A stretch of DNA of 64,000 nucleotides, from contig CAAEIG010000052.1 of NCBI GenBank assembly GCA_900755895.1, forward strand, positions 26,268 through 90,267, given 5' to 3'. Each line of letters begins with the position of its first letter. Within the stretch, counting starts at the first letter, position 1. The notes under the pieces were generated by a model. The model did no database searches. It saw nothing but the letters and a program-made list of their open reading frames with translations, and was not told the origin of the DNA. This document shows positions 1 to 13,619 of this stretch, one piece after another. The position numbers and the translations under genes were made by a program. The stretch is from Clostridia bacterium. Its GTDB lineage: Bacteria > Bacillota > Clostridia > Oscillospirales > Acutalibacteraceae.

Positions 1-401
1 TCGTGAAAGGATTCCAAATCCAAAGCGGCGCCATGGCGTCCACCGTGGCTCACGACGCTCACAATCTGCTGGTCATTGGCACAAACGACCAGGATATGGC
101 CTTGGCTGCTAACACTTTGATCCAGGCAGGGGGCGGCATGGTCGTGGTGCGGGATGGAAAGGTCCTTGGGCTGGTTCCCCTGCCCATTGCAGGACTGATG
201 AACGACAAGCCCGTCAACGAAATGAGCGACCTGGTGGAACACTTGGAAAACGCCTGGGAACAGATTGGATGCACGATGGTCTCCCCCTTTATGACCATGG
301 CACTGATTCCCCTGGCCTGTCTGCCGGAGCTGCGACTGACGGACCGCGGCCTTGTGGATTGCACCAAGTTCTGCTTTGTACCGCTGGAGATCGAAGAATA
401 G
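1..401 (+). CDS. ade: Adenine deaminase, C-terminal fragment (5' end lies outside the window)
   Basis: Translation ...HDAHNLLVIGTNDQDMALAANTLIQAGGGMVVVRDGKVLG... resembles the conserved C-terminal domain of adenine deaminases. The ORF runs in from the window edge. Confidence 0.55.
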   Translation, partial: VKGFQIQSGAMASTVAHDAHNLLVIGTNDQDMALAANTLIQAGGGMVVVRDGKVLGLVPLPIAGLMNDKPVNEMSDLVEHLENAWEQIGCTMVSPFMTMALIPLACLPELRLTDRGLVDCTKFCFVPLEIEE

Positions 402-413
402 GAGAAGAATACC

Positions 414-1505
414 ATGGCAATTCATTTTCACCATTCCCGCTGGGAGGCTATTCGGAAAAACTACGATGCCTGGTGGGATCATAAACTGGATCGTCCTTTG
501 ATCAGTGTACAATTGGAAACCCAAGATCCTGGGCGTCCCCAGCCCGCTGCACCGCTGCTGTCCCAGGAAACCGCCCTGGATCTCTCCTGGAGCCCAGAGG
601 ACTTGATTGACCGCATTGATTACGAGCTATCCAAACAGGAGTTCTTAGGCGACGCCTATCCCTACTTCAACATGGACTGTTTTGGTCCCGGCGTACTGGC
701 GGCATTTCTGGGAGCAACGCCTGATAACAGCACTGGACGGATCTGGTTTCATGTGGATGAACACAAGGAGCTTTCCCAACTGCACTTCCAATATCAGCCG
801 GAGAATGTGTGGTTTCAGCGCGTAAAGGATATTTACCGAGCAGCCAACCGAAAATGGAATGGTCAAGTCGTCATGGGGATGGTGGACCTTGGCGGTATCA
901 TGGATGTGTTGGCTGTCTTCCGAGGAACGGACAACCTTCTGATGGACCTCTATGACGAGCCGGAAGAAGTCAAGCGGTTGGTCAAGGAACTGCACGACTT
1001 GTGGATGCGCTACTATGGGGAACTGTGCGAAATTCTGGAGGAATGTGCACAGGGATACTCGGATTGGTCCAAGATTTTCTCTTCACAGAGAAGCTATATC
1101 ATCCAGTCAGATTTCTCCTTCATGATTAGCAACCCCATGTTCCAAGAATTCATTTTGGGAGAGCTGGAACAGTGTACGCAGGAATTGCCCCGCACCATCT
1201 ATCATTTGGATGGCCCAGGAGAACTGAAACACCTGGACGATCTATTGAACCTACCCCAGCTCAATGCGGTGCAATGGGTCCCGGGCGCTGCCTCCCCGGA
1301 TCAGTCTCATTGGCCGGAGGTGTACACTAAGATTCATCAGGCAGGAAAAGGAACTCAAATCTGGGACGGCTATGACTGCCTTAGAGCCGTAAAACAGCAG
1401 GTGGGAACGCTGGAAGGGGTACATTTCTTCTATATCGGTGGCCCCTGCAGTCCAGAGAAACGGGAGCAACACCTAGCTGCACTGAAAGAGTTTGGTGTGG
1501 AATAA
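414..1505 (+). CDS. Uroporphyrinogen-decarboxylase (URO-D)-like family protein (MtaA/CmuA-type fold), function unknown
   Basis: 363-aa ORF. The central segment MGMVDLGGIMDVLAVFRGTDNLLMDLYDEPEEVKRLV matches the recurrent URO-D-like signature (D.gG..dvl..frGte.l..dly..pe.v..l). It starts 12 nt after the ade stop, behind a GGAGAAG RBS. Confidence 0.4.
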   Translation: MAIHFHHSRWEAIRKNYDAWWDHKLDRPLISVQLETQDPGRPQPAAPLLSQETALDLSWSPEDLIDRIDYELSKQEFLGDAYPYFNMDCFGPGVLAAFLGATPDNSTGRIWFHVDEHKELSQLHFQYQPENVWFQRVKDIYRAANRKWNGQVVMGMVDLGGIMDVLAVFRGTDNLLMDLYDEPEEVKRLVKELHDLWMRYYGELCEILEECAQGYSDWSKIFSSQRSYIIQSDFSFMISNPMFQEFILGELEQCTQELPRTIYHLDGPGELKHLDDLLNLPQLNAVQWVPGAASPDQSHWPEVYTKIHQAGKGTQIWDGYDCLRAVKQQVGTLEGVHFFYIGGPCSPEKREQHLAALKEFGVE

Positions 1506-1556
1506 ATTTTTCCGATACGCATGCTCTTGTTCCAACAGCTTGGTACCAAATAAAAG

Positions 1557-1595
1557 AAAAAGCCGCCGGGCATGAGCCCTGCGGCTTTTTTGTTT
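1557..1595 (+). terminator. Rho-independent terminator
   Basis: GC hairpin aaagccgccgggcatgagccctgcggcttt followed by a T-run. Confidence 0.6.
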
Positions 1596-1687
1596 GAAGA
1601 ACGCCAAAGATCTTTTCCCTTGCACGTCACACTTTTGATCGGAAAAACTTTTGCATAAACCCACAATGGCTCACTGCGTCCCTTTGT

Positions 1688-2725
1688 TCAGTCAGCCGTA
1701 ACAACGATCTTTATGACGCCGTCCAACCGATTCTCAAAGACCCGATAGGCCTCCTCGATTTGCGACAGAGGAAAGCGGTGGGTAATCAGCGGTGTGGTAT
1801 CCAGTTTCCCTTGTTCGATCAAGGAGAGAATCTCTGCACAATCACAGCCGTCCACGCCGCCAGTCTTAAACGTGAGATTCTTCCCATACATCTGGGGCAA
1901 GGGCAGGGTTTGATTCTCGTCGTACAGGGCCACCACCGTCACCACGGCATTGGGGCGGGCACACTTCCAAGCTAGTTCAAAAGTATTCTTTCCACCGGCC
2001 ACTTCCAATACCACATCCGCTCCTCCATGGTCAGAGGCTTCCTGCACAAACTCCTCACAATTCTCTGGCTCGCATACCAGAACCTGGGGGTAATGCTCCT
2101 GGACAAAACGCCGCCTTGCTTTCTCCTTTTCGCAGACAACAATCCTTCGGGGATGCTTCAGCATCACACACAGCAGAGTGCAAATCCCCGTGGGTCCTGC
2201 ACCAATAATCAACACGGTGTCCTCGGGTTGGATCTCTGAGATGCGAGCTGCCCAGAATCCCGTGGCCAGAATATCCCCCACAAACAGGGCTTGATCATCC
2301 GTTACACTATCAGGAATTCGATTCAGTCCTTGGTCTGCGTATGGGACTCGGACGTATTCCGTCTGTCCGCCATCAATGCGGCACCCCAAGGCCCAACCGC
2401 CATTGGCGTCAGTACAATTGTTCACATAACCATGCTTACAGAAAAAACACTGGCCGCAAAAAGTCTCCACATTTACCGTCACACGGTCCCCAGGTTGGAC
2501 AGAATGCACGTCGCTGCCCACCTGCTCTACAACACCTACCATCTCATGGCCCACAGTGATACCCGGCACAGCCCGGGGTACGCTGCCATGTTTGATATGC
2601 AGATCGCTGGTACAGATGGAACTCATGGTAACCCGGACGATAGCGTCTCGAGAATCCTGCAAAGTGGGTTTTGGCTTGTCCAGCAGTGCAAAATTTCCCG
2701 GTTCCAGATAGGTCAATGCCTTCAT
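1688..2725 (-). CDS. Zn-dependent alcohol/polyol dehydrogenase (MDR family: threonine/sorbitol/idonate dehydrogenase-like)
   Basis: MKALTYLEPG..., catalytic-Zn motif CTSDLH, GHEMVGVV, and a structural-Zn cysteine cluster CGQCFFCKHGYVNNC. The internal ATG at 2725 is preceded by AAGGAGGAGG. Confidence 0.8.
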   Translation of the reverse strand: MKALTYLEPGNFALLDKPKPTLQDSRDAIVRVTMSSICTSDLHIKHGSVPRAVPGITVGHEMVGVVEQVGSDVHSVQPGDRVTVNVETFCGQCFFCKHGYVNNCTDANGGWALGCRIDGGQTEYVRVPYADQGLNRIPDSVTDDQALFVGDILATGFWAARISEIQPEDTVLIIGAGPTGICTLLCVMLKHPRRIVVCEKEKARRRFVQEHYPQVLVCEPENCEEFVQEASDHGGADVVLEVAGGKNTFELAWKCARPNAVVTVVALYDENQTLPLPQMYGKNLTFKTGGVDGCDCAEILSLIEQGKLDTTPLITHRFPLSQIEEAYRVFENRLDGVIKIVVTAD

Positions 2726-2914
2726 GGATTTCCTCCTCCTTTTCCTCACGATGTTTTATGGAATACATCTGACAAAGGCAGTTCCCACACTTTCACCTGG
2801 AACTGCCCACAAAGAAATCTATCTGAAACTATTATACATAGCCACTCAGCAGTCCGCAATGGCTCTGAGAACTTTGACTATATGAAAATCCTGCTATTTT
2901 ACCGAAGAACAATG

Positions 2915-4213
2915 TCACGCCTGAGGCAGAGGAAACGTGCTGCCGCCGTGGGGCATGAGAGTGGTCTCCACTCCGTCAAGGGTACCGCCATTGCAATTGG
3001 CCGCCAGGGCTAACGCCTCATCCAGCGTCTTAGCTACCTGGATCTTTGTATGCTCAAAACACTCACCAGGAATGTCCGTGACCAAGATCAGATTGTAATT
3101 CTCCGATGCTTCGGCAAAGAGGAACCCCACAAATCCGCCAATGGAAAAATTTGCTCGGAGAGCTTTCTCCCGCTCCTCCATGGTGTCATAGGCGCAAATC
3201 TGAGCCTCGCAGTCCGGATCACCAAAGCCCTCCCGGCACTGGGACAGCAGGATCATCGTACCACCAGGGGCAACAGCCGCCAGCGCGTTTGAGAGCGTCT
3301 TGGACGTCTGATAGAGGTTGATGTCCTTTGGATAGCCGCCCGCACTGGCAATAACCAAGGGAGTGCGATGAGGAATGGGCACCCCATCCAGCTGCTCCAC
3401 CGCCTTGGTTGCAGCCTCGTGGGCCTTTTGCCAATCTCCTGCAAAAGCACCCACAATTTGGTAGTTGTCATCCACAAATACGTTGAGAAGATAGGCCGGC
3501 TTGGCAAAGGAAGCACACTCCACGAGATCGCTGTGAAAGGGGTTATCCTCCCCCATATTTCCATTGCAGACCCGGGGATTGGAACCACTGCCCAGGCCGT
3601 GATTGAGAGCATTATTGTGATTGGTGTTGATGGTCTCCCGGCCTGCAATACCGGGGACCACGGACTTCCGACCGCCGCCGAAACCCGCCAGGAAGTGGTA
3701 CACCACGCCACCGGTGAGAATCAGCTTGTCACAAGCCATGGCATAGCTGTTCAGCCACACCGGAGTTCCCCGGCTGCTGGTTCCCATATAGGTGAGATGC
3801 TCCTTGTCATCGCACTGGTGGTCCATAAACCGGACGCGGCGGTAGAGTTCCTCCCCAACCAGGGAGATGTGTTCCTCTTCCGTCTGCCGGCGGTGCGTAC
3901 CGGTTGCACAGAGAATGAGAATATCTTCGTCAGGGATTCCGGCCCGGTTGAGCCGTTCCACTAGAATAGGCAGGTACGTGCTAGGCTGTTGCCAACGGCG
4001 GGTGACATCAGAGATGATGATGCATACCTTGTCCCCAGCGTGGACGGCCTCCTCAATGGGACCAGCACCAATGGGATGGTCCAAAGCGTATTCGATGTGC
4101 TCCCGCACAGTCCGTTTGGGAAAATCCATTGTATTGGCATGGACCTCTGACACCACCTGCCGAGGATCCAACGACACAGAAAATTCTGTATCACTGTATT
4201 TCATCTTTTCCAT
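2915..4213 (-). CDS. LarA-family (nickel-pincer nucleotide-dependent) 2-hydroxyacid racemase/epimerase homolog
   Basis: Aligns by eye with L. plantarum LarA: IISDVTRRW vs ISSDHTRP, ATGTHR vs ATGFHR (His108), YHFLAGFGGGRKSVVPGIAG vs SHFFAGFSGGRKSVLPGIAS (His200), and IASAGGYPKDINLYQ vs ISTNGGYPLDQNIYQ. Start chosen at MEKMKY (4213), which has a GAAGG RBS. Confidence 0.75.
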   Translation of the reverse strand: MEKMKYSDTEFSVSLDPRQVVSEVHANTMDFPKRTVREHIEYALDHPIGAGPIEEAVHAGDKVCIIISDVTRRWQQPSTYLPILVERLNRAGIPDEDILILCATGTHRRQTEEEHISLVGEELYRRVRFMDHQCDDKEHLTYMGTSSRGTPVWLNSYAMACDKLILTGGVVYHFLAGFGGGRKSVVPGIAGRETINTNHNNALNHGLGSGSNPRVCNGNMGEDNPFHSDLVECASFAKPAYLLNVFVDDNYQIVGAFAGDWQKAHEAATKAVEQLDGVPIPHRTPLVIASAGGYPKDINLYQTSKTLSNALAAVAPGGTMILLSQCREGFGDPDCEAQICAYDTMEEREKALRANFSIGGFVGFLFAEASENYNLILVTDIPGECFEHTKIQVAKTLDEALALAANCNGGTLDGVETTLMPHGGSTFPLPQA

Positions 4214-4596
4214 AATAAATCGCCTTCTATGATTAGGATCTGCACGCAAACGCGCTAATATAGCGGATATAGTAGCACTTTACAGTGAGAAAGTCAAGAA
4301 ACTCATCACTCTATGAACAACTACTACCTTATGACGGAAAGAGAACCTGCCCCCAAAAAAAGCTTTAGGAAATCAATTCTAACTAGGTACCTGCGTCTGG
4401 TGGGGAAAGATTTTGTCAAAATGAAATCCGGATTCCACGAAAAAAACAATTGCACAGTCTAGCATCGCCAAAAATCATACAAACATCCCAATTTTTAGAT
4501 TTTATCTCCTTGGCACCTTGGAGGTTCTATGATACACTTAAAAAAACGCATTGAACTACCCATGTTTTTCCACATTACTGGCTAAGGAGGAATACT

Positions 4597-6822
4597 ATGT
4601 CGGAGACCAAGTTTACATTCTATCAAAATCCCAACGGGCCTAAGATCGGCACATCGTCGGCACCGATCATCGAACAGGACGGGCTGTATTTCAAAGACCT
4701 AGCAAGAACCGGAAACCTGCTTCCCTATGAGGACTGGCGCTTGGATGCCGACACCCGGGCCAAAGATCTGGCTTCACGCCTTAGCGTGGAAGAGATCGCC
4801 GGACTGATGATGTATTCCCCTCACCAGATGGTACCCGCCCTACCCGGCAGCCCCTTTCCTGCCACCTACGGCGGCAAGCCCTTCCCGGAAAGCGGGAAAG
4901 ACCCCTGGGATCTGTCCGATCAGCAAATTCTTCTTTTGGAGAGGGATCGCATCCGCCACATTCTTGCCATGAAACTGCAAGATGCAGAAACAGCCGCCAA
5001 ATGGAGCAATCAGTTACAGCAGGCAGCAGAAGAGCTTCCCTGGGGCATTCCTGTAAACATCTCCAGCGACCCTCGCCATGGAGCTTCCAAGGCCGGAGCG
5101 GAATATAAAAGCGGCGGCTGTGATGTTTCCAAGTGGCCCGAAGGCTTGGGCATTGCCGCTACATTCTCCCCCCAGGTGTGCCGGGAGCTGGGAAATGCCA
5201 TCTCCAAAGAATACCGTGCCATGGGAATCACCACGGCACTTTCCCCACAAGTGGATTTAGCCACAGAGCCCCGTTGGATGCGCTTTGAGGACACTTTCGG
5301 CACCAATCCCGACCAGGTGACTGAGCTGGGAAAAATCTACTGCGACAGCTTGCAAACCACCCAGGGCAGTCCCGACGGCTGGGGCCAGGACAGCGTGTGT
5401 GCCATGGCCAAACACTGGCCCGGCGGCGGCCCTTGTGAAGGCGGACGTGATGCCCACTATGCCTTTGGCAAATACGCTGTGTACCCGGGAGACAACTTCC
5501 AGGACCACCTGCACCCCTTCGTGGAAGGTGCTTTCCAACTGGATGGTCCAACCAAGTCCGTGTCTGCCATCATGCCTTACTACACCGTCTCTTGGAACCG
5601 GGACAAGAAAAACGGCAAAAATGTGGGGAACTCCTACAGCGAGTACCTCATCAAAGACTTGTTGCGCCACACCTACCAGTATGATGGGATCGTCTGCACC
5701 GACTGGGGCATCACCGGCGACCCCGCCCCTGTGATTGACTCCTTTGGCAGCCGTTGCTTCGGGGTGGAAGACCTCACCGAAGCCCAGCGTCATCTGCTGG
5801 CTATTGAGAACGGCGTGGATCAGTTCGGCGGCAACAGCAATATCGTCCCCATTCTGGAAGCCTACCGCTTGGGCTGCGAAAAGTACGGGGAAGAAGCTAT
5901 GAGGGCCAGGATGGAAGAATCAGCTGCACGCCTGCTGAAGAACATCTTCCGGTGCGGTCTTTTTGAAAATCCCTACCTGGATCCGGAAGAGAGTAAGCGA
6001 ATCGTAGGCTGCGAGGAGTTGTCCAAGGCAGGCTACCAGGCTCAGCTTCAGTCCGTGGTGCTGGTGAAAAATCAGCAGGCCTTGCCCATCTCTGAGAGAA
6101 AAAAGGTGTACATCCCCAAGAGAAAAATCAAGGCCAGGAAAAACTTCTTCCGTGGCATGGATCCCGAACGGGAGATTATCCCAGCAGACAAAAGCCTGGT
6201 GGAAAAATATTACCAGTGGGCGGACACTCCTGAGGAAGCGGACTTCGCCCTCGTGTTCATCGAAAGCCCTCTGTCCGATGGATACTCCCAAGAGGACGCG
6301 GACCAGGGCGGCAATGGCTATGTGCCCGTATCCCTGCAGTACCGTCCCTACGTGGCGGACCACGCCCGGGAAGTGAGCGTTGCCGGAGGGGACTTCCGGG
6401 AGAACTTCACCAATCGGAGCTACCGGGGCAAAATGGGTACCGCTGCCAACGAATCCGACCTGGATCTTGTGCTGGATACCAAGGCCGCCATGGGAGACAA
6501 GCCTGTAATAGTCTGTCTGCGGATGCACAATCCCACCGTGCTCTCCGAGCTGGAACCTTCCGCCGACGGTATTCTCATTGATTTCGGGGTGCAGACTCAA
6601 GCTATCTTTGACCTGGTATCCGGCAATGCGGAACCTTCTGGACTGCTACCCGTGGAGCTTCCCGCCAATATGGAGACTGTTGAGCGCCACTGTGAGGACC
6701 GTCCCTTTGATATGGAGGTGTACGTGGACCAGACCGGGAACTCCTACGGTTACGCCTTTGGCATGAACTGGAAAGGCGTCATCCAGGACGAGCGGGTCAC
6801 TCGCTACCTCAAACGGTCGTGA
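4597..6822 (+). CDS. Glycoside hydrolase family 3 (beta-glucosidase / beta-xylosidase-like), cytoplasmic
   Basis: 741 aa. GH3 N-domain signatures (KHWPGGGP, GIVCTDWGITGD). No signal peptide. Strong RBS TAAGGAGGAATACT-ATG. Confidence 0.8.
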   Translation: MSETKFTFYQNPNGPKIGTSSAPIIEQDGLYFKDLARTGNLLPYEDWRLDADTRAKDLASRLSVEEIAGLMMYSPHQMVPALPGSPFPATYGGKPFPESGKDPWDLSDQQILLLERDRIRHILAMKLQDAETAAKWSNQLQQAAEELPWGIPVNISSDPRHGASKAGAEYKSGGCDVSKWPEGLGIAATFSPQVCRELGNAISKEYRAMGITTALSPQVDLATEPRWMRFEDTFGTNPDQVTELGKIYCDSLQTTQGSPDGWGQDSVCAMAKHWPGGGPCEGGRDAHYAFGKYAVYPGDNFQDHLHPFVEGAFQLDGPTKSVSAIMPYYTVSWNRDKKNGKNVGNSYSEYLIKDLLRHTYQYDGIVCTDWGITGDPAPVIDSFGSRCFGVEDLTEAQRHLLAIENGVDQFGGNSNIVPILEAYRLGCEKYGEEAMRARMEESAARLLKNIFRCGLFENPYLDPEESKRIVGCEELSKAGYQAQLQSVVLVKNQQALPISERKKVYIPKRKIKARKNFFRGMDPEREIIPADKSLVEKYYQWADTPEEADFALVFIESPLSDGYSQEDADQGGNGYVPVSLQYRPYVADHAREVSVAGGDFRENFTNRSYRGKMGTAANESDLDLVLDTKAAMGDKPVIVCLRMHNPTVLSELEPSADGILIDFGVQTQAIFDLVSGNAEPSGLLPVELPANMETVERHCEDRPFDMEVYVDQTGNSYGYAFGMNWKGVIQDERVTRYLKRS

Positions 6823-6919
6823 GAAACTCCTTTTTCTAGAGGACACCAAAGTCCAACCTGATATAAGTTTGGATCTATAATCACCGCCGCAGCCGCGGCA
6901 GGACCACGGAGGGAACTTT

Positions 6920-9694
6920 ATGATTTTCCAGCCCAATTCCCATGACCTGACCCTTTCTCCCTGGGGACCTTATTCCCAGAAATACGCCGGAATCTCCCAT
7001 GTGGCGGACCCTGATCAGGGAGTCCGCTTTGACCTAAGTGTCTTTCCTGGACTGTACCGCCGCAAAGTGGAAGTGCCCAATGTAATGGTGGAAGGCAACT
7101 ACCACATTTGGGAGGCCTGCCCGGACTTGAGCTATTTTTCCACACGCCACGAGATCGAGGAAAAAGATCGGGTTTACTGCGACATCTCTTACGGAAAACT
7201 GGAAGAGGACGCCTACCTCATCCGAGCCAATTGTGTCAACCACAGCGATGATGTTCAAAACCTGGTGCTCCACTACATGGCGTCCATCCAGTTTCCCACC
7301 GTAAAAAACGATTGGGTTTCTCAGGAAGTGCCTCCGGTACAGTGGACCTTTCCAGAAAATTGCCTATACTGCCGGGCTGTGGATTACCTCCGTTTCTCCC
7401 GAGAAACCACCCTCCCCACCGATTCTTTAGTGCCCGACGGAAAACGCCCCAACGAAGTGCGGGGCCGTGGCTTTTCCGGCGGGTCGGCCGTGCTGCTCCA
7501 AGCGGGCAATGGCGAGAAAATGGACTTCCTTCTGGATGTTCCCCACAGCTTTTCCCAACCTGTTCTGGCGGTGCGGTATCAAAGCTCCTCGCCCTGTGTT
7601 TTAGCCGCCGAAGGGGATGGATTTCTGGCAGAGGGAATCCTTCCCTCTATAGAACAGACAGGCATTGCCTTCCTACCGGTGTCACAGTATCGAAGCGGAG
7701 AAAAATTGTCCTTTTCTTTGTGGGCAAAGGAAGGCACTCTGGTGGTGGATAGCCTGATCCTCTGTGAAAAGCAGGACGCACCTTCTCTCAACTGCCACTT
7801 GCCCCAGGAGCCTCACGTTCCCCAAGTGTGGGAGCTGGGCTCGGACAGTCCCTTGGACCAGAACACCACCATGTTGCCCCTGTTCAAGGACGCGGCAAAA
7901 GACCCGGATACCACCCACAATACTCTCATCTTGAAATACCCAACTGCTCAGGGATACTATGGGGTGTACTGGGACTTCCCGGACTACTGCCTGCGATATT
8001 GGCTCACTGACGAGCTGGATTACTCCCTGCGCTACTTAGCCCACGACCACGTCCGAAAAGTGCTGTCGGGCAACGGCCTGGGACATTTCTCCAACGTATT
8101 CCTCCGTCCCATCCCTGTAAAGCCCCAGGAAAGTCTGTCGGTGTACGGTGTGGTGTGCCGGGGTAGCTCCCGGGAAGAGGTGGAGCAAAAGCTATCCCAA
8201 CTGATCGTCAAACGAGCTAACTTTCCCCAGATGTGGGAAGACCAACGGGCTGCCGCTCTGGAAGCTGGGGGCAACCCCCAAGGAGAGCCCTACCGTTTTT
8301 CCCAAAACAGGATGATTGCCACTACTCTGACCAACGTGGTATACCCCATCTATACGAAGCGAAGCTACATTCGCCACAACACCCCGGGCAGGTGGTGGGA
8401 CTGCCTGTACACTTGGGATTCTGGTTTTGTTGGATTGGGGCTGGCCACCTGTGACATCCAGAGAGCAGTGGACTGCTTCAATGCCTATGTCACAGAGCCT
8501 GGTGACCAAGAAACCGCCTTTATTCATCATGGCTCCCCAGTACCGGTACAATTCTATTTATTCCAGGAACTATATGACCGCACCCAGTCCCGAGAGCTTC
8601 TGGCCTATTTCTATCCACGGTTGCTGCAATATTACCGGTTCATGGTGGGAAAGCTGGGCAGCTCCACCACGGACCTTTGGGAGTCCGGGCTGTTGCGGAC
8701 CTGGGATTATTTCTACAACTCCGGCGGCTGGGACGATTACCCGCCCCAGGTGGCGGTTCACGCCCAGAAGCTGGAAAGCTCCACCGCCGGCACGGTGACC
8801 ACCTCCCACATGATCCGCTGCGCCAAGATCCTCCAGTTTGTTGCCCAGACTTTAGGGGGACTGGAAGAGGACACCCATGAATTCCAGCGGGACATCCAGA
8901 AGCTGACACAAGCACTCCAGGATAACTGCTGGGATGAGGAATCCGGCTACTTTGGATATCTCACTCACAATACAGAGGGCAAGCCTCAAGGAATCTTCCG
9001 CCATAAGAGCGGTCAAAACTTCAACATGGGTCTGGACGGTGCCTCTCCCCTGCTGGCGGGTATTGTGACCTCTACACAGTTGGAGCGCCTGATCGGTCAC
9101 CTGTCCTCTGAGAAGGAGCTTTGGACTTCCATCGGGCTTTCCACCGTGGATCAGTCCGCCGCCTACTACAAAAAGGACGGTTACTGGAACGGCGCTGTGT
9201 GGATGCCCCATCAGTGGTTCTTCTACAAGGCACTATTGGACTACGGCAGAGGGGACTTGGCATTTCGCATTGCCAAAACCGCTCTGGACCTGTGGAAAAA
9301 CGAAACAGACCAGTCCTACAATTGCTTTGAGCATTTCATCATCGTATCCGGTCGGGGCGCGGGATGGCATCACTTTTCCGGTCTTTCCACCCCCGTGCTG
9401 TTGTGGTATCAATCCTACTTCCTGCCAGGAACCATCACCACAGGGTTCTCCGGGTGGGTGGTCTCCCAGACCTGGAACAACCATCACCAAGGCCTGGAAT
9501 GCGATCTTATCTTCACCGATGGAAAAGACCCCAAAACCGTGGTTCTAGTCATGGCGGAGGGACATTCCTATCGGGTGACCGCCAACGGCACACCATTGCT
9601 TGCTCTGGTCCGGGAGGGTGGAGCGCTGGAAGTGACCTTACAAGAACTTCCTATCTCTGGAGAGGTCCATCTGACCGTCACGCTGGAAGAGTAA
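6920..9694 (+). CDS. Large glycoside hydrolase, (alpha/alpha)6 six-hairpin type (GH63 / glycogen-debranching-like); family uncertain
   Basis: 924 aa with an N-terminal beta-sandwich region. Catalytic-domain-like segments (FYPRLLQYYRFMVG, WESGLLRTWDYFYNSGGWDDYPPQ, GYFGYLTHN, WMPHQWFFYKALLDYG) are typical of six-hairpin glycosidases. No signal peptide. Confidence 0.5.
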   Translation: MIFQPNSHDLTLSPWGPYSQKYAGISHVADPDQGVRFDLSVFPGLYRRKVEVPNVMVEGNYHIWEACPDLSYFSTRHEIEEKDRVYCDISYGKLEEDAYLIRANCVNHSDDVQNLVLHYMASIQFPTVKNDWVSQEVPPVQWTFPENCLYCRAVDYLRFSRETTLPTDSLVPDGKRPNEVRGRGFSGGSAVLLQAGNGEKMDFLLDVPHSFSQPVLAVRYQSSSPCVLAAEGDGFLAEGILPSIEQTGIAFLPVSQYRSGEKLSFSLWAKEGTLVVDSLILCEKQDAPSLNCHLPQEPHVPQVWELGSDSPLDQNTTMLPLFKDAAKDPDTTHNTLILKYPTAQGYYGVYWDFPDYCLRYWLTDELDYSLRYLAHDHVRKVLSGNGLGHFSNVFLRPIPVKPQESLSVYGVVCRGSSREEVEQKLSQLIVKRANFPQMWEDQRAAALEAGGNPQGEPYRFSQNRMIATTLTNVVYPIYTKRSYIRHNTPGRWWDCLYTWDSGFVGLGLATCDIQRAVDCFNAYVTEPGDQETAFIHHGSPVPVQFYLFQELYDRTQSRELLAYFYPRLLQYYRFMVGKLGSSTTDLWESGLLRTWDYFYNSGGWDDYPPQVAVHAQKLESSTAGTVTTSHMIRCAKILQFVAQTLGGLEEDTHEFQRDIQKLTQALQDNCWDEESGYFGYLTHNTEGKPQGIFRHKSGQNFNMGLDGASPLLAGIVTSTQLERLIGHLSSEKELWTSIGLSTVDQSAAYYKKDGYWNGAVWMPHQWFFYKALLDYGRGDLAFRIAKTALDLWKNETDQSYNCFEHFIIVSGRGAGWHHFSGLSTPVLLWYQSYFLPGTITTGFSGWVVSQTWNNHHQGLECDLIFTDGKDPKTVVLVMAEGHSYRVTANGTPLLALVREGGALEVTLQELPISGEVHLTVTLEE

Positions 9695-9708
9695 AAGAAA
9701 TAGCGAGC

Positions 9709-9745
9709 AAAAACAGCTTCCCAAAACGGGAAGCTGTTTTGTTTT
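9709..9745. terminator. Bidirectional terminator between convergent genes
   Basis: Hairpin aaacagcttcccaaaacgggaagctgtttt with T/A runs on both sides. Confidence 0.6.
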
Positions 9746-9751
9746 CAGCGG

Positions 9752-11560
9752 TTATCCCTCTTTTTTATAGTCAAAGTCGGGAATCTTGTGCCAGCGCTCC
9801 CGGAAGTAGTGGGCCACTAGCTTGGGCTTCCGGTCCCGGGTAAACAGGCCTTTCTTGTTGCCTTGAACACGAAGCATACTCTGGCTGGTGGCGAAGTCTG
9901 CAAAGTTCCATGCCTGCTCTCCCACCACAAACTCATACTCGTCAAATACGGAGTTGTTCATCTTGTAGTACTCCAACTGGTACTCCTCGGTATACATCAC
10001 CGGCGTGGTGTCGTGGAAGCCCATCACCGTGTCGGCGCCGTACTCTGTGAAGATCACCGGCTTGCCTATTGCTCTCCACTGGTCCAGCTCCTCCCGGAGC
10101 GCCTGCTGGGAGACTTCCAGATCCGGCCCGCCGTAATACCACCCGTAATACCGGTTCAGGCAGATCACATCGCTGAGCTTGGAGGAACAATCCGTATCCG
10201 GCGTTGTATTGATGGCGACGCTCACCAGAGTACAGGGACGCTTCTGGGGATCCAGCTCCCTGGCCAGCTCATACAAGGGAGCGAAGTACTCATAGGCTCC
10301 GGGGGCGCCGGAATCCGGCTCGTTAGCGATGCTCCACATCACTACGCAAGCGTGGTTCTTGTCCCGAGCGATCAAGTCCCGGATCACATCCTTATGGTGT
10401 TCCTGGGTCTGAACGCCGTGCTCCTTGTCAAAGGTCTCCACCTTCTGGCCGTTGAAGTTGGCCCCGCCTCCAAACTGGAAGTTGAGTCCCACAGCAGTGG
10501 TCTCGTCAATGACCACAAACCCCTCCTGATCGCACAGGCGCATCATCTCCTCGCTATAGGGGTAATGGCTGGTGCGGAAGCTGTTGGCCCCTTGCCACTT
10601 CATCAGGGACATATCTTTGGTATTCATGGGCAGGTTCATTCCCCGGCCATTGGGGAAGGTATCCTCGTGGCGGCCGTAACCTTTGAAGTAGAAAGGCCTG
10701 CCGTTGATGAGGAACTTGGTTCCCTCCACCTTCACTGTCCGCACGCCATAGGGCAGGGTATACACGTCCTGACCAAAGGTGACTCGGATGTCATACAGGT
10801 ATGCGTTCAAAGGCTGCCACAGGTGGACATTTTCGATCTCCAAGACACCTTGGGTTCCCTGGGACTGGGCCACCCTATTGCCTTCCCGGTCAAAGACCTC
10901 CACTAGACAACTGCCCTCTCCCACCGTTTCTACGGTATAGGTGAGCTTGGCGTCCTGACCGCAGACTTCCGGTGTCACCCAAATGTCCGCGATGTAATCC
11001 TTGGGAGTGGTATACAGCTTTACTGGACGGGTGATGCCACAGTAGTTAAAGAAATCAAAGTTGGGTCGGTTCTGAGGCTTTTTGGAGACAGGACCTCTCC
11101 CACCTCCCAGCATGTCCGACCGGCCTCCCACGGGAAGGGTGGTATAATCGATCACATTGTCCACAGCGATGGTGAGCAGGTTGTCCTCACCATCCCGCAA
11201 GTTCTGAGTGACCTCAACCTCAAAAGGCAGAAATCCGCCCCGATGCTCGCAAATCAACTCACCGTTAAGGTAGATCTTGGCGTGGTGGGTCACCGCGGCA
11301 CACCGCAGCACCACCCGCTGTTCTTTCACAAAGGCCGGTACCGAGATCTTCCGCTGATAGAATACCCAGCCGTAATGATCCCGAAAATCCACACCTTCCT
11401 TCAAGTCGTTGTAGGAGGCAGGCACCGGCATGGTCAGAGGATCCTTCAAGGGGACGGCATACCACTGGTCCTCAAAGCCGTGTCCATCGTCCAGCTTAAA
11501 GTCCCACACACCTCCCAAATCGCTCAGCAACCGGGAGGGAGTCAAAATCGGATATAACAT
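9752..11560 (-). CDS. uidA: Beta-glucuronidase (GH2)
   Basis: 602 aa, collinear with E. coli GusA (603 aa). MLYPILTPSR...DGHGFEDQWY...RVVLRCAAVTHHAKIYLNGELICEHRGGFLPFEVEVT matches MLRPVETPTR...RIVLRFDAVTHYGKVWVNNQEVMEHQGGYTPFEADVT. Confidence 0.9.
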   Translation of the reverse strand: MLYPILTPSRLLSDLGGVWDFKLDDGHGFEDQWYAVPLKDPLTMPVPASYNDLKEGVDFRDHYGWVFYQRKISVPAFVKEQRVVLRCAAVTHHAKIYLNGELICEHRGGFLPFEVEVTQNLRDGEDNLLTIAVDNVIDYTTLPVGGRSDMLGGGRGPVSKKPQNRPNFDFFNYCGITRPVKLYTTPKDYIADIWVTPEVCGQDAKLTYTVETVGEGSCLVEVFDREGNRVAQSQGTQGVLEIENVHLWQPLNAYLYDIRVTFGQDVYTLPYGVRTVKVEGTKFLINGRPFYFKGYGRHEDTFPNGRGMNLPMNTKDMSLMKWQGANSFRTSHYPYSEEMMRLCDQEGFVVIDETTAVGLNFQFGGGANFNGQKVETFDKEHGVQTQEHHKDVIRDLIARDKNHACVVMWSIANEPDSGAPGAYEYFAPLYELARELDPQKRPCTLVSVAINTTPDTDCSSKLSDVICLNRYYGWYYGGPDLEVSQQALREELDQWRAIGKPVIFTEYGADTVMGFHDTTPVMYTEEYQLEYYKMNNSVFDEYEFVVGEQAWNFADFATSQSMLRVQGNKKGLFTRDRKPKLVAHYFRERWHKIPDFDYKKEG

Positions 11561-11602
11561 AAGGCATCTTCCTTTCCCATGGCGATTCCGCCAGAAATAT
11601 TG

Positions 11603-11645
11603 AAAAGAAGGGACCCCGCAAGGTCCCCTTCTCCTCTTTAACTTA
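11603..11645 (-). terminator. Rho-independent terminator, likely for the Rrf2 gene
   Basis: Minus strand reads gaaggggaccttgcggggtcccttc followed by ttttcaatattt. Confidence 0.5.
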
Positions 11646-11801
11646 TATTTTATATTATTTGATTACAAAAACAAGTATTTTTTTGTTTAAATAGTCTGAT
11701 TTTCTTGTCTCTTTTTCAAAATTGCTATTCCCAGTCCCACCTAGTGCACCCACTATCGGGAAGTTTAGGAATAGCTAGAAGGCTTCTTTTATAGATCGAC
11801 A

Positions 11802-12197
11802 TTAGAGCAAGTCCGTCAGCCGCTTGCTGTAAAAAAAGTCCCGGACCATTTTGTCATATTCTTTCCACAGGGGCAGAGTTTGACAGGTTGATGCTCGCTT
11901 GCATGGTGACGCGCCTTTCGTCAGGCAACTGACAGTGGCCAGCGAGCCCTCCATCCATTCGAGAATTTCACCCACTGTGTACTCCTCCGGCTCACGGCAG
12001 AGCACATATCCCCCGCCATGGCCCCCTTGACCGAGCACCATATTCCCCCGAACCAGCTCTTTTACAATAATCTCCAGGTATTTCTTGGAAATTTCCTGCC
12101 TTGCGGCAATGTCCTTCAGAGGGATATTACCCTCCCCCCGATGCTCTGCCAAATCAATCATCACGCGCAGCGCGTAGCGTCCCTTTGTAGATACCAT
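11802..12197 (-). CDS. Rrf2-family transcriptional regulator (CymR/IscR-like)
   Basis: MVSTKGRYALRVMIDLAEH... is the canonical Rrf2 N-terminal wHTH. ATG at 12197 sits 6 nt after GAGGTG. The track's 12206 start is a GTG inside that RBS. Confidence 0.8.
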   Translation of the reverse strand: MVSTKGRYALRVMIDLAEHRGEGNIPLKDIAARQEISKKYLEIIVKELVRGNMVLGQGGHGGGYVLCREPEEYTVGEILEWMEGSLATVSCLTKGASPCKRASTCQTLPLWKEYDKMVRDFFYSKRLTDLL

Positions 12198-12276
12198 CTC
12201 ATTCACCTCGTTTGACCTATTCTACCACAGGGTGAATTGGTAAATCAATCTGCGATTCCAAAAACCCTTTAAACCT

Positions 12277-12306
12277 ATTGACATAGTAGGTCAATATTGA
12301 TACAAT
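12277..12306 (+). promoter_or_regulatory. metY sigma-A promoter (TTGACA-17-TACAAT) overlapped by inverted repeat ATTGAC-N7-GTCAAT (putative Rrf2 operator)
   Basis: -35 at 12278-12283, -10 at 12301-12306, inverted repeat at 12277-12295. The divergent Rrf2 promoter (TTGATT-18-TAGAAT on the minus strand) lies immediately upstream. Confidence 0.55.
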
Positions 12307-12338
12307 GCTCCTATGAAAAAACGGAGGAGAATGCAACT

Positions 12339-13619
12339 ATGAGCAAATACAGATTTGAAACTCTCCAACTTCATGTAGGACAGGAGCAAGCCGACCCAGC
12401 AACTGACGCCAGGGCGGTTCCCATCTACCAAACCACTTCTTATGTGTTCCACGATTCCGCCCATGCAGCTGCCCGGTTCAACTTGACCGATACCGGCAAC
12501 ATCTATGGCCGTCTGACCAACTCCACCCAGGAGGTTCTGGAAAAGAGAATCGCCGCTCTGGAAGGTGGTGTGGAAGCCTTGGCGGTGGCCTCTGGAGCCG
12601 CTGCCATCACCTACACTCTGGAAGCTCTGGCCCAGCAGGGCGATCATATTGTGGCGCAAAAAACCATCTATGGGGGCACCTACAATCTTTTGGCCCACAC
12701 TCTGCCCCAGTACGGTGTGACTGCCAGCTTTGTAGACGCCCACAATTTGGAAGAAGTAGAATCCGCCATCCAGCCCAACACCAAGGCAATTTATCTGGAA
12801 ACACTGGGCAACCCCAACAGCGACGTTCCAGATATCGCCGCCATTGCAGCTATCGCCCATAAGCACGGCCTTCCCCTGGTGATCGACAACACCTTTGGCA
12901 CGCCCTACTTCATCCGCCCCATTGAATACGGTGCAGACATTGTGGTTCACTCCGCTACCAAATTCATAGGCGGGCATGGAACTTCCTTGGGCGGCATCAT
13001 CGTGGATTCCGGAAAGTTTGACTGGAAGTCAAGCGGTAAGTTTGACCCCATCGCCCAACCCAATCCCAGCTATCACGGCGTCTCCTTTGTGGATGCCGCA
13101 GGACCTGCCGCTTTCGTCACATACATTCGAGCTGTTTTGCTCCGAGATACCGGTGCCGCCATCTCCCCCTTTAATGCGTTCATGCTGTTACAAGGTGTGG
13201 AAACTCTGTCCCTGCGGCTGGAACGCCACGCTAAAAACACCCAAAAAGTGGTGGAGTTTCTGGCTTCTCATCCTCAGGTGGCCAAAGTCAACCATCCCAG
13301 CCTAACGGACCATCCTGACCATGAATTGTATCAAAAGTATTTCCCCAAGGGTGGCGGCTCCATCTTCACCTTTGAAATTAAAGGTGGTCAGGAAGCTGCC
13401 TGGAAGTTTATTGACCATCTGAAAATCTTCTCTCTGCTCGCCAATGTGGCGGATGTTAAGTCCCTAGTCATTCACCCCGCCACCACCACCCACAGTCAGC
13501 TGAATAGGGCAGAACTGGCGGACCAGGGCATCACTCCCGGGACCATTCGACTGTCCATCGGGACGGAGCATATTGAGGACATCCTGGAGGATTTGGAGAA
13601 CGGATTTGCGTCCGTATAA
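12339..13619 (+). CDS. metY: O-acetylhomoserine sulfhydrylase (PLP-dependent, Cys/Met metabolism)
   Basis: MSKYRFETLQLHVGQE...PIYQTTSYVF... and a PLP-lysine region ...HSATKFIGGHGT are classic MetY/MetC-family features. RBS GGAGGAG lies 9 nt upstream of the ATG at 12339. Confidence 0.9.
   Translation: MSKYRFETLQLHVGQEQADPATDARAVPIYQTTSYVFHDSAHAAARFNLTDTGNIYGRLTNSTQEVLEKRIAALEGGVEALAVASGAAAITYTLEALAQQGDHIVAQKTIYGGTYNLLAHTLPQYGVTASFVDAHNLEEVESAIQPNTKAIYLETLGNPNSDVPDIAAIAAIAHKHGLPLVIDNTFGTPYFIRPIEYGADIVVHSATKFIGGHGTSLGGIIVDSGKFDWKSSGKFDPIAQPNPSYHGVSFVDAAGPAAFVTYIRAVLLRDTGAAISPFNAFMLLQGVETLSLRLERHAKNTQKVVEFLASHPQVAKVNHPSLTDHPDHELYQKYFPKGGGSIFTFEIKGGQEAAWKFIDHLKIFSLLANVADVKSLVIHPATTTHSQLNRAELADQGITPGTIRLSIGTEHIEDILEDLENGFASV

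What the first reader, a model, noticed from the sequence alone, without database searches (positions are those of the whole stretch)
1688..4213. LarA-family nickel-pincer racemase/epimerase homolog plus Zn-dehydrogenase at the edge of a glucuronide/glycosidase island, with no larB/larC/larE nearby
The 433-aa protein aligns convincingly with lactate racemase LarA, including the His108- and His200-equivalent motifs. LarA enzymes need the NPN cofactor made by LarB, LarC and LarE, and none of these is in the window. Recent work shows LarA homologs act on many 2-hydroxyacids, reportedly including a sugar-acid (D-gluconate 2-) epimerase. Here the gene is divergent from a GH3 gene and near uidA (beta-glucuronidase). 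An MDR Zn-dehydrogenase of the idonate/sorbitol-dehydrogenase type lies immediately downstream. This points to a sugar-acid epimerisation/oxidation step (for example a gluconate/mannonate/idonate interconversion feeding hexuronate catabolism) rather than lactate racemisation.
Basis: partly seen in the sequence, partly recalled or inferred. Interest (0 to 1): 0.6.

Follow-up and report, generated by a model that had tools for sequence, protein, structure and literature searches.

The report
Uncharacterised nickel-pincer hydroxyacid racemase beside alcohol dehydrogenase
This is an intact but uncharacterised member of the nickel-pincer (LarA) 2-hydroxyacid racemase superfamily sitting next to an ordinary zinc alcohol dehydrogenase in a gut Clostridia genome; its link to the neighbouring glycosidase genes looks like an accident of gene order, so it is a modest addition to a known enzyme family.

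Summary
Window 2915-4213(-) encodes a 432-aa LarA-superfamily protein. Every catalytic, cofactor-binding and carboxylate-binding residue of L. plantarum LarA is kept. Window 1688-2725(-) encodes a complete zinc MDR dehydrogenase. No larB, larC or larE lies in the window or its flanks.

The sugar-acid interpretation is only weakly supported:
- The protein is neither a lactate racemase nor a GntE-type gluconate epimerase. It sits in a Clostridia branch sister to the LarAH10 "hydrophobic 2-hydroxyacid racemase" family (492 bits, cutoff 540).
- Its pocket is fully hydrophobic (F, L, F, F, I, F, V, L) and unchanged in orthologues of 87-94% identity.
- The GH3/GH63/UidA block is found only in this species.
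- The LarAH-MDR pair exists only in one narrow clade. Elsewhere each gene stands alone in unrelated contexts.
- The MDR resembles alcohol dehydrogenases (5YLN, 4CPD), not idonate or sorbitol dehydrogenases.
- Absence of nearby larBCE is the rule for this branch: none in 80 related loci.

Most likely this is an NPN-dependent racemase for a hydrophobic or aromatic 2-hydroxyacid, with the substrate unknown. Whether the genome carries larBCE could not be tested. Verdict: a new member of a known kind, of modest interest.

The parts
2915..4213 (-). larAH: 432-aa LarA-superfamily (nickel-pincer nucleotide dependent) 2-hydroxyacid racemase/epimerase homologue, in a Clostridia branch sister to the LarAH10/HHR family
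   Evidence: Pfam Lar_N and LarA_C. NCBIfam NPN_LarAH10 scores 492 bits, cutoff 540. PDB matches: 6D6Z at 1.6e-63 and 5HUQ at 2.5e-56. All catalytic and NPN residues are kept. dN/dS is 0.03-0.06 against orthologues. The NJ tree places it in the Clostridia branch.
1688..2725 (-). Zn-dependent medium-chain dehydrogenase/reductase (345 aa), alcohol-dehydrogenase type, probably NAD(H)-linked
   Evidence: Pfam ADH_N and ADH_zinc_N. Best PDB matches are 5YLN (220 bits) and 4CPD (180 bits); idonate dehydrogenase 6DKH gives 80 bits. No NCBIfam cutoff is reached. Catalytic Zn ligands C38, H60, E61, D151; structural Zn ligands C90, C93, C96, C104; Rossmann motif G175xGxxG180; E199 at the end of beta2. 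dN/dS is 0.03-0.04.
2831..2838 (-). Conserved extended -10-like box (TGTATAAT) in the larAH-MDR spacer; a possible separate promoter for the MDR gene
   Evidence: Read from the sequence. It lies within the conserved ATGTATAAT stretch shared by the window, L003 and L004 spacers. Function is inferred, not shown.
2777..2807 (-). 9-bp stem hairpin (GGCAGTTCC...GGAACTGCC) followed by TTTGTC, between the -10-like box and the MDR ribosome-binding site
   Evidence: Present in the MFE fold. Kept in L004 with a compensatory change (GGCAGCTCC/GGAGCTGC). L003 also has a hairpin, in another register. Its role as leader, attenuator or larAH terminator is unknown.
4269..4297 (-). sigma-70-like promoter match (TTGACT-17-TACTAT, with TG) 56 nt upstream of the larAH ATG
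   Evidence: Consensus scan. The number of sites found was not above the shuffled expectation, so this is only a candidate.
4597..11560 (.). Context only, judged not functionally tied: GH3 (4597-6822,+), GH63/MGH1-like (6920-9694,+), beta-glucuronidase UidA (9752-11560,-)
   Evidence: Pfam and NCBIfam. The block is found next to larAH only in same-species contigs L001 and L002. It is absent from L003, L004, L093 and L094, where other genes (DNA polymerase IV-like, GH43, Fe-ADH) occupy this side.

Best explanation
The 432-aa protein is a functional NPN (nickel-pincer nucleotide)-dependent 2-hydroxyacid racemase/epimerase. It belongs to an uncharacterised, Clostridia-dominated branch of the LarA superfamily that is sister to the LarAH10 'hydrophobic 2-hydroxyacid racemase' family.

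Inferred mechanism, by homology with LarA: NPN is tethered to Lys183 and its nickel is completed by His199. The substrate carboxylate is held by Tyr301, Gln302 and Lys305. His107 and His173 alternate as acid and base while the C2 hydride is parked on the cofactor, which inverts C2.

The pocket residues are all hydrophobic. The substrate is therefore most likely an aliphatic or aromatic 2-hydroxyacid of the kind derived from amino acids, such as aryl-lactates or 2-hydroxy-(iso)caproate-like acids, rather than a hexonate.

The cofactor must come from larB, larC and larE encoded elsewhere in the genome.

The downstream gene is an independent NAD(H)-type zinc alcohol dehydrogenase. Its adjacency is a lineage-specific juxtaposition, probably with its own promoter. 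The nearby glycosidases are a species-specific insertion with no functional tie.
For: Shown:
- Domain architecture and strong similarity to solved LarA-family enzymes.
- All nine catalytic, NPN-binding and carboxylate-binding residues are conserved, both here and in all 80 related loci.
- Strong purifying selection: dN/dS is 0.03-0.06 with synonymous sites saturated.
- NCBIfam ranking: LarAH10 492 > malate racemase LarAH6 380 > LarA 311 >> hexonate group 26.
- Bona fide LarAH10 members (633-662 bits) are only about 40% identical and form the sister branch.
- Pocket positions equivalent to F175, F176, I220, T353, P355, W358, T359 and I362 read F, L, F, F, I, F, V, L. They are unchanged in the 87-94% orthologues (L003-L009). 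From 54 to 73% identity only F/Y at the W358 position, V/I at T359, F/L at F175 and the I362 position vary.
- Leu in the loop and F/Y at the W358 position are the published group-10/HHR hallmarks (PMC7583248, PMC11770544).
- Orthologues at 87-90% identity are stand-alone genes in unrelated contexts.
- On the same side of the tree, neighbours include class I/II aminotransferases and FAD-linked 2-hydroxyacid-type oxidases.
- MDR features and nearest relatives.
- MDR orthologues at 84-87% identity lie in three other contexts without larAH.
- A conserved -10-like box lies in the spacer.

Inferred: the hydride-shuttle mechanism, the substrate class, and the independence of the two genes.
Against: - No activity data exist for any member of this branch.
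- The only characterised near relative (LarAH10, about 40% identity) works best in vitro on gluconate/mannonate, and its native substrate is explicitly unresolved (PMC11770544, PMC11796402). Pocket-based substrate prediction failed for that group, according to its authors.
- Alcohol or aldehyde dehydrogenases recur next to larAH in the closest clade: the MDR in the window, L003, L004 and L093/L094; Fe-ADH in L003, L008 and L009; ALDH in L008 and L009. This could mean a real pathway link.
- larBCE have not been demonstrated in this genome.
Confidence: 0.55

Rival explanations
1. First reader's model. The LarA homologue is a sugar-acid C2-epimerase (gluconate/mannonate/idonate type). It works with the MDR as an aldonate dehydrogenase to feed products of the adjacent beta-glucuronidase and glycosidases into hexuronate catabolism.
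For: - LarAH10 of M. elsdenii, the nearest characterised relative, has gluconate/mannonate 2-epimerisation as its best measured activity (170 M-1 s-1; PMC11770544).
- Bona fide LarAH10 genes lie in operons with TRAP transporters, IlvD/Edd dehydratases, DUF1537 acid-sugar kinases and PdxA-like dehydrogenases.
- UidA, GH3 and GH63 genes lie within 8 kb.
Against: - The glycosidase block is adjacent only in this species.
- No uxaC, uxuA, uxuB or kdg genes are in the window.
- The pocket lacks the GntE signature E,V,A,H and the Lys/Arg of bona fide LarAH10 members. It is entirely hydrophobic.
- The hexonate-epimerase model scores 26 bits against a cutoff of 500.
- The MDR scores 108 bits against the idonate 5-dehydrogenase cutoff of 469, and is closest to alcohol dehydrogenases.
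- Orthologues with the same pocket sit in contexts with no sugar genes.
Confidence: 0.12
2. The racemase is part of a small redox module with alcohol and aldehyde dehydrogenases: the MDR here, and Fe-ADH plus an MdlD-like aldehyde dehydrogenase in sister species. The module would interconvert aromatic or aliphatic 2-hydroxyacids with the corresponding aldehydes and alcohols. Examples are a mandelate/aryl-lactate-type route, or oxidation of a 1,2-diol to a 2-hydroxyacid followed by racemisation.
For: - In the clade of 87% identity and above, three kinds of dehydrogenase abut larAH on the same strand in different arrangements. These are the MDR (window, L003, L004, L093/L094), Fe-ADH (L003 upstream; L008 and L009 downstream) and ALDH (L008, L009).
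- The ALDH's best NCBIfam model is benzaldehyde dehydrogenase MdlD, at 412 bits against a cutoff of 550.
- The MDR's nearest structures are broad-range alcohol dehydrogenases.
- The hydrophobic, aromatic-rich pocket fits aryl substrates.
Against: - No 2-hydroxyacid dehydrogenase or decarboxylase that would connect the steps is adjacent.
- The two Fe-ADHs differ in subtype.
- Most orthologues of both larAH and the MDR are stand-alone.
- A conserved promoter-like box and hairpin separate larAH from the MDR.
- All family scores for the partner enzymes are below curated cutoffs.
Confidence: 0.2
3. Orphan LarA homologue. The genome lacks larB, larC and larE, so the protein is either inactive, uses scavenged NPN from other gut microbes, or uses another cofactor.
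For: No larB/C/E in about 80 kb around the gene.
Against: - Absence of nearby larBCE is the rule in this branch: no hit in 80 related loci with 10-kb flanks. The group-10 context table of PMC7583248 likewise lists no LarB/C/E.
- The tblastn query is sensitive enough to find clostridial LarC at 34% identity.
- The Lys tether, the Ni-ligand His and all other NPN contacts are invariant under dN/dS of about 0.03-0.06. This is hard to reconcile with a cofactor-less protein.
- Published surveys report LarA homologues together with the NPN biosynthesis enzymes in about 9% of genomes surveyed (PMC11796402).
Confidence: 0.05

Closest known systems
LarAH10 / HHR family (Megasphaera elsdenii 'Plr'; NCBIfam NF052525, NPN-dependent 2-hydroxyacid racemase)
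   Same: It is the best-scoring family model (492 bits). The fold and all catalytic and NPN residues match. So do the Leu at the F176-equivalent loop position and the F/Y at the W358-equivalent position (PMC7583248, PMC11770544).
   Different: - It scores below the curated cutoff of 540.
- It is about 40% identical to members that pass the cutoff (633-662 bits), and lies on the sister branch of the tree.
- The pocket reads F/L/F...L, instead of the Met-rich pocket with Lys at the I362-equivalent position.
- The gene context differs. Here there is none conserved; bona fide members have PanB-like, TRAP, IlvD and DUF1537 neighbours.
Malate racemase Mar2 (LarAH6, PDB 6D6Z)
   Same: Closest solved structure by sequence (1.6e-63, 218 bits). 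The NPN and catalytic residues are the same.
   Different: NF052593 scores 380 against a cutoff of 500. It lacks the H/Q-K pair (W358/T359 equivalents) that binds malate's second carboxylate; here these positions are F-V (PMC11770544).
Lactate racemase LarA (L. plantarum, PDB 5HUQ)
   Same: Same fold. Asp72, Arg75, His108, His174, Lys184, His200, Tyr294, Gln295 and Lys298 are all conserved. [quoted passage not shown]
   Different: NF033504 scores 311 against a cutoff of 460. F176->L and W358->F enlarge the pocket, and T359->V. It is not in a lar operon with larBCE.
D-gluconate 2-epimerase GntE (LarAH19/20; putative hexonate epimerase group 18, NF052594)
   Same: Same superfamily and cofactor chemistry.
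   Different: 26 bits against a cutoff of 500. The PDB GntE-type entry 4NAR matches only at 2.4e-06 over about 110 residues. The signature E,V,A,H is replaced by F,L,F,V.
Bacterial Zn alcohol dehydrogenases of the 5YLN / Thermus TADH (4CPD) / TbADH group (for the MDR)
   Same: Catalytic Zn ligands of the Cys-His-Glu-Asp type, a four-Cys structural Zn site and the Rossmann motif. It scores 220 bits to 5YLN and 180 bits to 4CPD.
   Different: Substrate unknown. No NCBIfam equivalog cutoff is reached (best: threonine 3-dehydrogenase, 139 against 380). A Glu rather than Asp ends beta2.

Membership tests
LarA superfamily (NPN-dependent 2-hydroxyacid racemases/epimerases) | Lar_N plus LarA_C domain architecture, about 420-430 aa | tested here: met
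   PF09861 at 2.3e-71 and PF21113 at 1.4e-15. Matches to solved LarA-family chains cover residues 32-409.
LarA superfamily (NPN-dependent 2-hydroxyacid racemases/epimerases) | Two catalytic histidines (His108 and His174 of LarA_Lp) | tested here: met
   H107 and H173. Both are invariant in 12 orthologues and in 80 related loci.
LarA superfamily (NPN-dependent 2-hydroxyacid racemases/epimerases) | NPN-binding residues: Lys184 tether, His200 nickel ligand, Asp72, Arg75 | tested here: met
   K183, H199, D69 and R72, all invariant.
LarA superfamily (NPN-dependent 2-hydroxyacid racemases/epimerases) | Substrate carboxylate/hydroxyl binders Tyr294, Gln295, Lys298 | tested here: met
   Y301, Q302 and K305.
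LarA superfamily (NPN-dependent 2-hydroxyacid racemases/epimerases) | NPN cofactor supply: larB, larC and larE present in the same genome | not testable with these tools
   Absent from the window and from contig positions 19-99 kb.
LarA superfamily (NPN-dependent 2-hydroxyacid racemases/epimerases) | Nickel- and NPN-dependent racemase/epimerase activity | not testable with these tools
   Requires biochemistry.
LarAH10 / hydrophobic 2-hydroxyacid racemases (NF052525) | Score at or above NCBIfam's curated equivalog cutoff (540 bits) | tested here: not met
   492.2 bits. Orthologues score 443-520. Negativicutes members score 633-662.
LarAH10 / hydrophobic 2-hydroxyacid racemases (NF052525) | Leu at the loop position equivalent to F176, and F/Y at the position equivalent to W358 (published signatures) | tested here: met
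   L175 and F361. Signatures are from PMC7583248 and PMC11770544.
LarAH10 / hydrophobic 2-hydroxyacid racemases (NF052525) | Clusters with M. elsdenii-type members in a tree | tested here: not met
   The NJ tree places the window clade in the sister, Clostridia-dominated branch. No bootstrap support was computed.
Lactate racemase LarA (NF033504) | Equivalog cutoff of 460 bits, and pocket F,F,W,E/Q | tested here: not met
   311 bits. The pocket reads F,L,F,V.
D-gluconate 2-epimerase GntE / hexonate epimerases | Signature E,V,A,H at the F175/F176/W358/T359 equivalents, and the family model score | tested here: not met
   The signature reads F,L,F,V. NF052594 scores 26.4 bits against a cutoff of 500.
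Zinc-dependent MDR alcohol dehydrogenases | Catalytic Zn ligands, four-Cys structural Zn site, GxGxxG Rossmann motif | tested here: met
   C38/H60/E61/D151; C90/C93/C96/C104; G175-G180. Pfam ADH_N and ADH_zinc_N.
L-idonate 5-dehydrogenase / sorbitol dehydrogenase subfamily of MDRs | Reaches the family cutoff, or is closest to these enzymes | tested here: not met
   NF007375 scores 108 bits against a cutoff of 469. PDB 6DKH gives 80 bits and 1PL6 gives 90 bits, against 220 bits for Zn-ADH 5YLN.

The most novel reading that the evidence does not exclude
The racemase belongs to a previously unrecognised, highly conserved 'floating' module of gut Oscillospirales. In this module an NPN-dependent aryl- or alkyl-2-hydroxyacid racemase teams up with alcohol and aldehyde dehydrogenases (Zn-MDR, Fe-ADH, MdlD-like ALDH). 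Together they would process aromatic 2-hydroxyacids such as phenyl-, hydroxyphenyl- or indole-lactate, or mandelate-like acids, in the gut. In that case the enzyme would be a determinant of the stereochemistry of host-active aryl-lactates. A more radical variant, not excluded here, is that the genome lacks larBCE and the enzyme depends on scavenged NPN.
Probability: 0.12. Interest if true: 0.65.

Novelty: new member of a known kind. Interest (0 to 1): 0.28.

Why it matters
About half of the LarA superfamily still has no assigned substrate. Even the nearest characterised enzyme, LarAH10, has no agreed native substrate.

This gene represents a very strongly conserved clade that is abundant in gut metagenomes. 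Orthologues are 87-94% identical at the protein level while synonymous sites are saturated. More than 1,900 homologues score E <= 1e-30.

Assigning its substrate would add a reaction to gut 2-hydroxyacid metabolism, possibly for amino-acid-derived aryl- or alkyl-lactates.

For genome annotation, the practical lesson is that the current label, 'nickel-dependent lactate racemase', is probably wrong. The neighbouring glucuronidase should not be used to infer function.

Tried and rejected
- Genome-wide search for larBCE. This was not possible. The single genome-contig scan went on LarAH context, and contig walking is limited to proteins encoded in the window. I could only show absence from about 80 kb of the contig.
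- Regex motif search for LarC, LarE and LarB. It found nothing relevant. I validated the motifs afterwards against authentic L. plantarum proteins taken from a plasmid lar operon.
- Riboswitch or NiCo-type RNA near the genes. An Rfam E-value scan of 1-12500 gave only a weak sRNA-model hit at 1557-1624 (28.7 bits against a gathering score of 97). I regard it as noise or terminator-like.
- Terminator between larAH and the MDR. The consensus scan found none on the minus strand. The hairpin at 2777-2807 has a poor U-tract.
- hyp363 as a shared partner of larAH. Two ~380-aa neighbour ORFs that also lacked a Pfam match turned out to be unrelated: an antisense artefact (L008, L009) and a membrane protein (Intestinibacter).
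- Greedy ORF calling mis-called antisense ORFs over larAH in some GC-rich loci. I corrected this using tblastn coordinates and the precomputed gene calls.
- I considered predicting the LarAH structure but dropped it. Sequence matches to solved structures already settle the fold, and the tool does not report pocket geometry.
Full report
**What is there.**
Window 2915-4213 on the minus strand encodes a 432-aa protein. The longer TTG-initiated ORF runs to 4249, but orthologues begin MESMKYSD or METMKYSD, which fits the ATG at 4213. The protein has the Lar_N and LarA_C domains. It matches solved LarA-family structures over almost its full length: malate racemase Mar2 6D6Z at 1.6e-63, and L. plantarum LarA 5HUQ at 2.5e-56.

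A 345-aa zinc MDR dehydrogenase is encoded at 1688-2725, 189 nt downstream on the same strand. A strong AAAGGAGG ribosome-binding site precedes its ATG.

A GH3 gene is divergent from the LarA homologue across 383 nt. It is followed by a GH63/MGH1-like gene and a bona fide beta-glucuronidase (804 bits against a cutoff of 544).

**The active site is complete.**
I mapped the HMMER alignment onto L. plantarum numbering. The result is D72->D69, R75->R72, H108->H107, H174->H173, K184->K183, H200->H199, Y294->Y301, Q295->Q302 and K298->K305. These residues are invariant in 12 orthologues spanning 60-100% identity. They are also invariant in all 80 related genes recovered from species-representative genomes.

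Against orthologues from other species, dN/dS is 0.03-0.06 while dS is at least 1. This is a working protein under strong constraint. It is expected (inference) to use the LarA proton-coupled hydride-transfer mechanism on a tethered nickel-pincer nucleotide.

**Which LarA-family enzyme?**
NCBIfam ranks the families as follows:
- LarAH10 family (NPN-dependent 2-hydroxyacid racemase): 492 bits, cutoff 540.
- LarAH6 malate racemase: 380 bits, cutoff 500.
- LarA lactate racemase: 311 bits, cutoff 460.
- Putative hexonate epimerase: 26 bits, cutoff 500.

Negativicutes proteins that pass the LarAH10 cutoff (633-662 bits) are only about 40% identical to this one. The window protein's own orthologues, and other Clostridia relatives tested, score 430-520. 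In a neighbour-joining tree rooted on LarA_Lp, bona fide LarAH10 members form one branch. The window protein lies in the sister, Clostridia-dominated branch. Its clade includes MAGs deposited under Oscillospirales-type names (Neglecta, Gemmiger, Faecalibacterium, Flavonifractor), Intestinibacter and some Desulfovibrio.

It is therefore neither a lactate racemase nor a GntE-type epimerase. It is an uncharacterised subfamily next to the 'hydrophobic 2-hydroxyacid racemases' (HHRs) of PMC11770544.

**Pocket.**
The four specificity positions used by Urdiain-Arraiza et al. are the equivalents of F175, F176, W358 and T359. Here they read F, L, F, V. The published patterns are F,F,W,E/Q for lactate racemases, E,V,A,H for GntEs, and x,x,H/Q,K for malate racemases. 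For HHRs the hallmark is F/Y at the third position (PMC11770544), and a loop Leu is the group-10 hallmark (PMC7583248).

The wider 20-position signature here is DRHHFLKHFYQSKFIGFVGL. It is identical in the 87-94% orthologues (L003-L009). From 54 to 73% identity only the F175, V297, W358, T359 and I362 equivalents vary.

Bona fide LarAH10 members instead carry Met at the F176-equivalent position. The Negativicutes subgroup also has Met at the I220-equivalent position. Most of them have Lys or Arg at the I362-equivalent position, where the window protein has Leu. The pocket here has no polar residue among its substrate-facing positions other than Ser304. I therefore infer a hydrophobic (alkyl or aryl) 2-hydroxyacid substrate.

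One caveat applies. The authors of PMC11770544 note that models did not predict specificity within the HHRs. LarAH10's best in-vitro reaction was, unexpectedly, gluconate/mannonate epimerisation at 170 M-1 s-1. PMC11796402 leaves its authentic substrate open.

**Gene context does not support a sugar-acid role here.**
- The GH3-GH63-UidA block flanks larAH only in same-species contigs (L001, L002).
- In the closest other species, this side of larAH holds other genes. In L004 and L093/L094 it is a DNA polymerase IV-like gene. In L003 it is GH43 plus Fe-ADH. The far flank (PemK toxin, CCA-adding enzyme, SEC-C) and the other flank (pyrophosphatase, rpsB, tsf) are shared. The glycosidases are thus a species-specific insertion.
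- The window has no uxaC, uxuA, uxuB or kdg genes. Its other glycosidases are scattered among housekeeping genes.
- The larAH-MDR pair is found only in relatives of 92-94% identity: L003, L004, and L093/L094, which were reached through a 92%-identical MDR.
- In orthologues of 87-90% identity, larAH is a lone gene between a glycosyltransferase and DUF554/peptidase M42 genes. In Anaerotruncus (62%) it follows the pyrimidine operon.
- MDR orthologues at 84-87% identity lie in three further contexts, none with larAH.
- A conserved TGTATAAT box and a hairpin with a compensatory change lie in the larAH-MDR spacer. This hints at separate transcription.

**The MDR.**
It has catalytic Zn ligands C38, H60, E61 and D151, structural Zn ligands C90, C93, C96 and C104, and a GxGxxG motif. 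Glu199 ends beta2, which suggests NAD(H) (inference from MDR family knowledge). Its nearest structures are Zn alcohol dehydrogenases 5YLN (220 bits) and Thermus TADH 4CPD (180 bits), then TbADH-type secondary alcohol dehydrogenases (about 115 bits). Sorbitol and idonate dehydrogenases score 80-90 bits. No NCBIfam cutoff is reached. 'Idonate/sorbitol type' is therefore not supported.

**A residual pattern.**
Within the closest clade, dehydrogenases recur next to larAH. They are the MDR, an Fe-ADH (L003 upstream; L008 and L009 downstream), and in L008/L009 an aldehyde dehydrogenase. That enzyme's best model is benzaldehyde dehydrogenase MdlD, at 412 bits against a cutoff of 550. Elsewhere on the same side of the tree, neighbours are class I/II aminotransferases and FAD-linked oxidases. 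This fits amino-acid-derived or aromatic 2-hydroxyacids loosely. I keep it as a rival or extension at about 0.2.

**larBCE.**
None is present in the window or in positions 19-99 kb of the 115-kb contig. This holds by Pfam calls, by motif scan and by tblastn with authentic LarB, LarC1, LarC2 and LarE from an L. plantarum plasmid lar operon. The same query detects clostridial LarC at 34% identity, so sensitivity is adequate.

The same tblastn and motif searches found no larB/C/E within 10 kb of any of the 80 related larAH genes. The group-10 context table of PMC7583248 also lists none. 'No larBCE nearby' is therefore the norm for this branch and not a peculiarity. Whether the genome has them elsewhere could not be tested. 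The invariance of the NPN contacts argues that it does.

**Verdict.**
This is an intact NPN-type 2-hydroxyacid racemase/epimerase of an uncharacterised subfamily beside an ordinary Zn alcohol dehydrogenase. The sugar-acid/hexuronate story rests on a species-specific gene juxtaposition and is unlikely (about 0.12). It is a new member of a known kind, and interest is modest.

Noticed in passing
window 414-1505 (+): A 363-aa protein lies convergent with the MDR and has no Pfam or NCBIfam match. It has more than 1,100 homologues, at 50% identity or more across Clostridia, Anaerolineae, Sumerlaeota and Verrucomicrobiota. Most are annotated 'hypothetical'. The AlphaFold model is confident (pLDDT 95, pTM 0.92). 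Its best fold matches are the M. mazei corrinoid methyltransferase MtaA-like 4AY7/4AY8 and uroporphyrinogen decarboxylases, at TM 0.55-0.63. The invariant motif is H264-x-D266 rather than the H-x-C zinc motif I recall for MT2 methyltransferases. It appears to be an unannotated URO-D-superfamily family of unknown function. It is absent from L003 and L004, so it is not tied to larAH.
   Followed up: partly
L044, L053, L058, L060, L061, L062, L064, L067, L072 (larAH at about 10001-11266, and the genes just downstream); also L059, L069, L073, L074: In bona fide LarAH10-family loci (Negativicutes, Desulfobacterota), larAH is followed within 13-61 bp, on the same strand, by a PanB-like (PF02548) gene. 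It is accompanied by TRAP DctPQM, IlvD/Edd dehydratase, a DUF1537 four-carbon acid-sugar kinase and a PdxA-like dehydrogenase. The group-10 context table of PMC7583248 does not list these. This looks like an acid-sugar (tetronate- or pantoate-like) catabolic operon. It may point to the unresolved native substrate of LarAH10.
   Followed up: partly
window 2777-2838 (-): The larAH-MDR spacer holds a conserved extended -10-like TGTATAAT box, followed by a 9-bp hairpin. The hairpin keeps pairing through a compensatory T>C/A>G change in L004. It may be a leader or attenuator for the MDR. The fold z-score of the whole spacer is unremarkable (-1.5).
   Followed up: partly
L008 11503-14095 and L009 12972-15576; L003 8531-9769: In sister species an Fe-dependent alcohol dehydrogenase abuts larAH. 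Its best model is lactaldehyde-reductase-like in L008 and PRK15138 alcohol-dehydrogenase-like in L003. In L008 and L009 there is also an aldehyde dehydrogenase whose best model is benzaldehyde dehydrogenase MdlD. All scores are below cutoffs.
   Followed up: partly
window 4597-13600 compared with L093/L094 2116-8500: In this species the block GH3-GH63-UidA-Rrf2 regulator-Cys/Met PLP enzyme sits between the PemK toxin gene and larAH. In related genomes small hypothetical genes and a DNA polymerase IV-like gene sit there instead. This looks like a species-specific replacement or insertion carrying the beta-glucuronidase.
   Followed up: partly
L013 2669-3823, L016 1557-2711, L017 11582-12742: In Intestinibacter, the 63-67% identical larAH is followed by a conserved multi-pass membrane protein of about 385 aa with no Pfam match. 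It is a candidate transporter for the unknown substrate.
   Followed up: no
window 1557-1624 (-): A weak Rfam match to Aggregatibacter sRNA 41 (28.7 bits against a gathering score of 97; E 0.0025) lies in the convergent spacer between hyp363 and the MDR. It overlaps a terminator-like hairpin at 1574-1587 and is most likely noise.
   Followed up: no
plasmid records NZ_CP096981 (Clostridium felsineum) and NZ_AP023417 (Vescimonas fastidiosa; L098): larA homologues are carried on large secondary replicons. They are 43% and 34% identical to the window protein. In the Vescimonas record the homologue sits beside lipoate ligase/LipA genes and an aminotransferase. The C. felsineum records are not among the plasmids matched by LarC: all nine Clostridium hits are C. 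butyricum. For Vescimonas this was not established, because 69 LarC-matching records were not listed.
   Followed up: no
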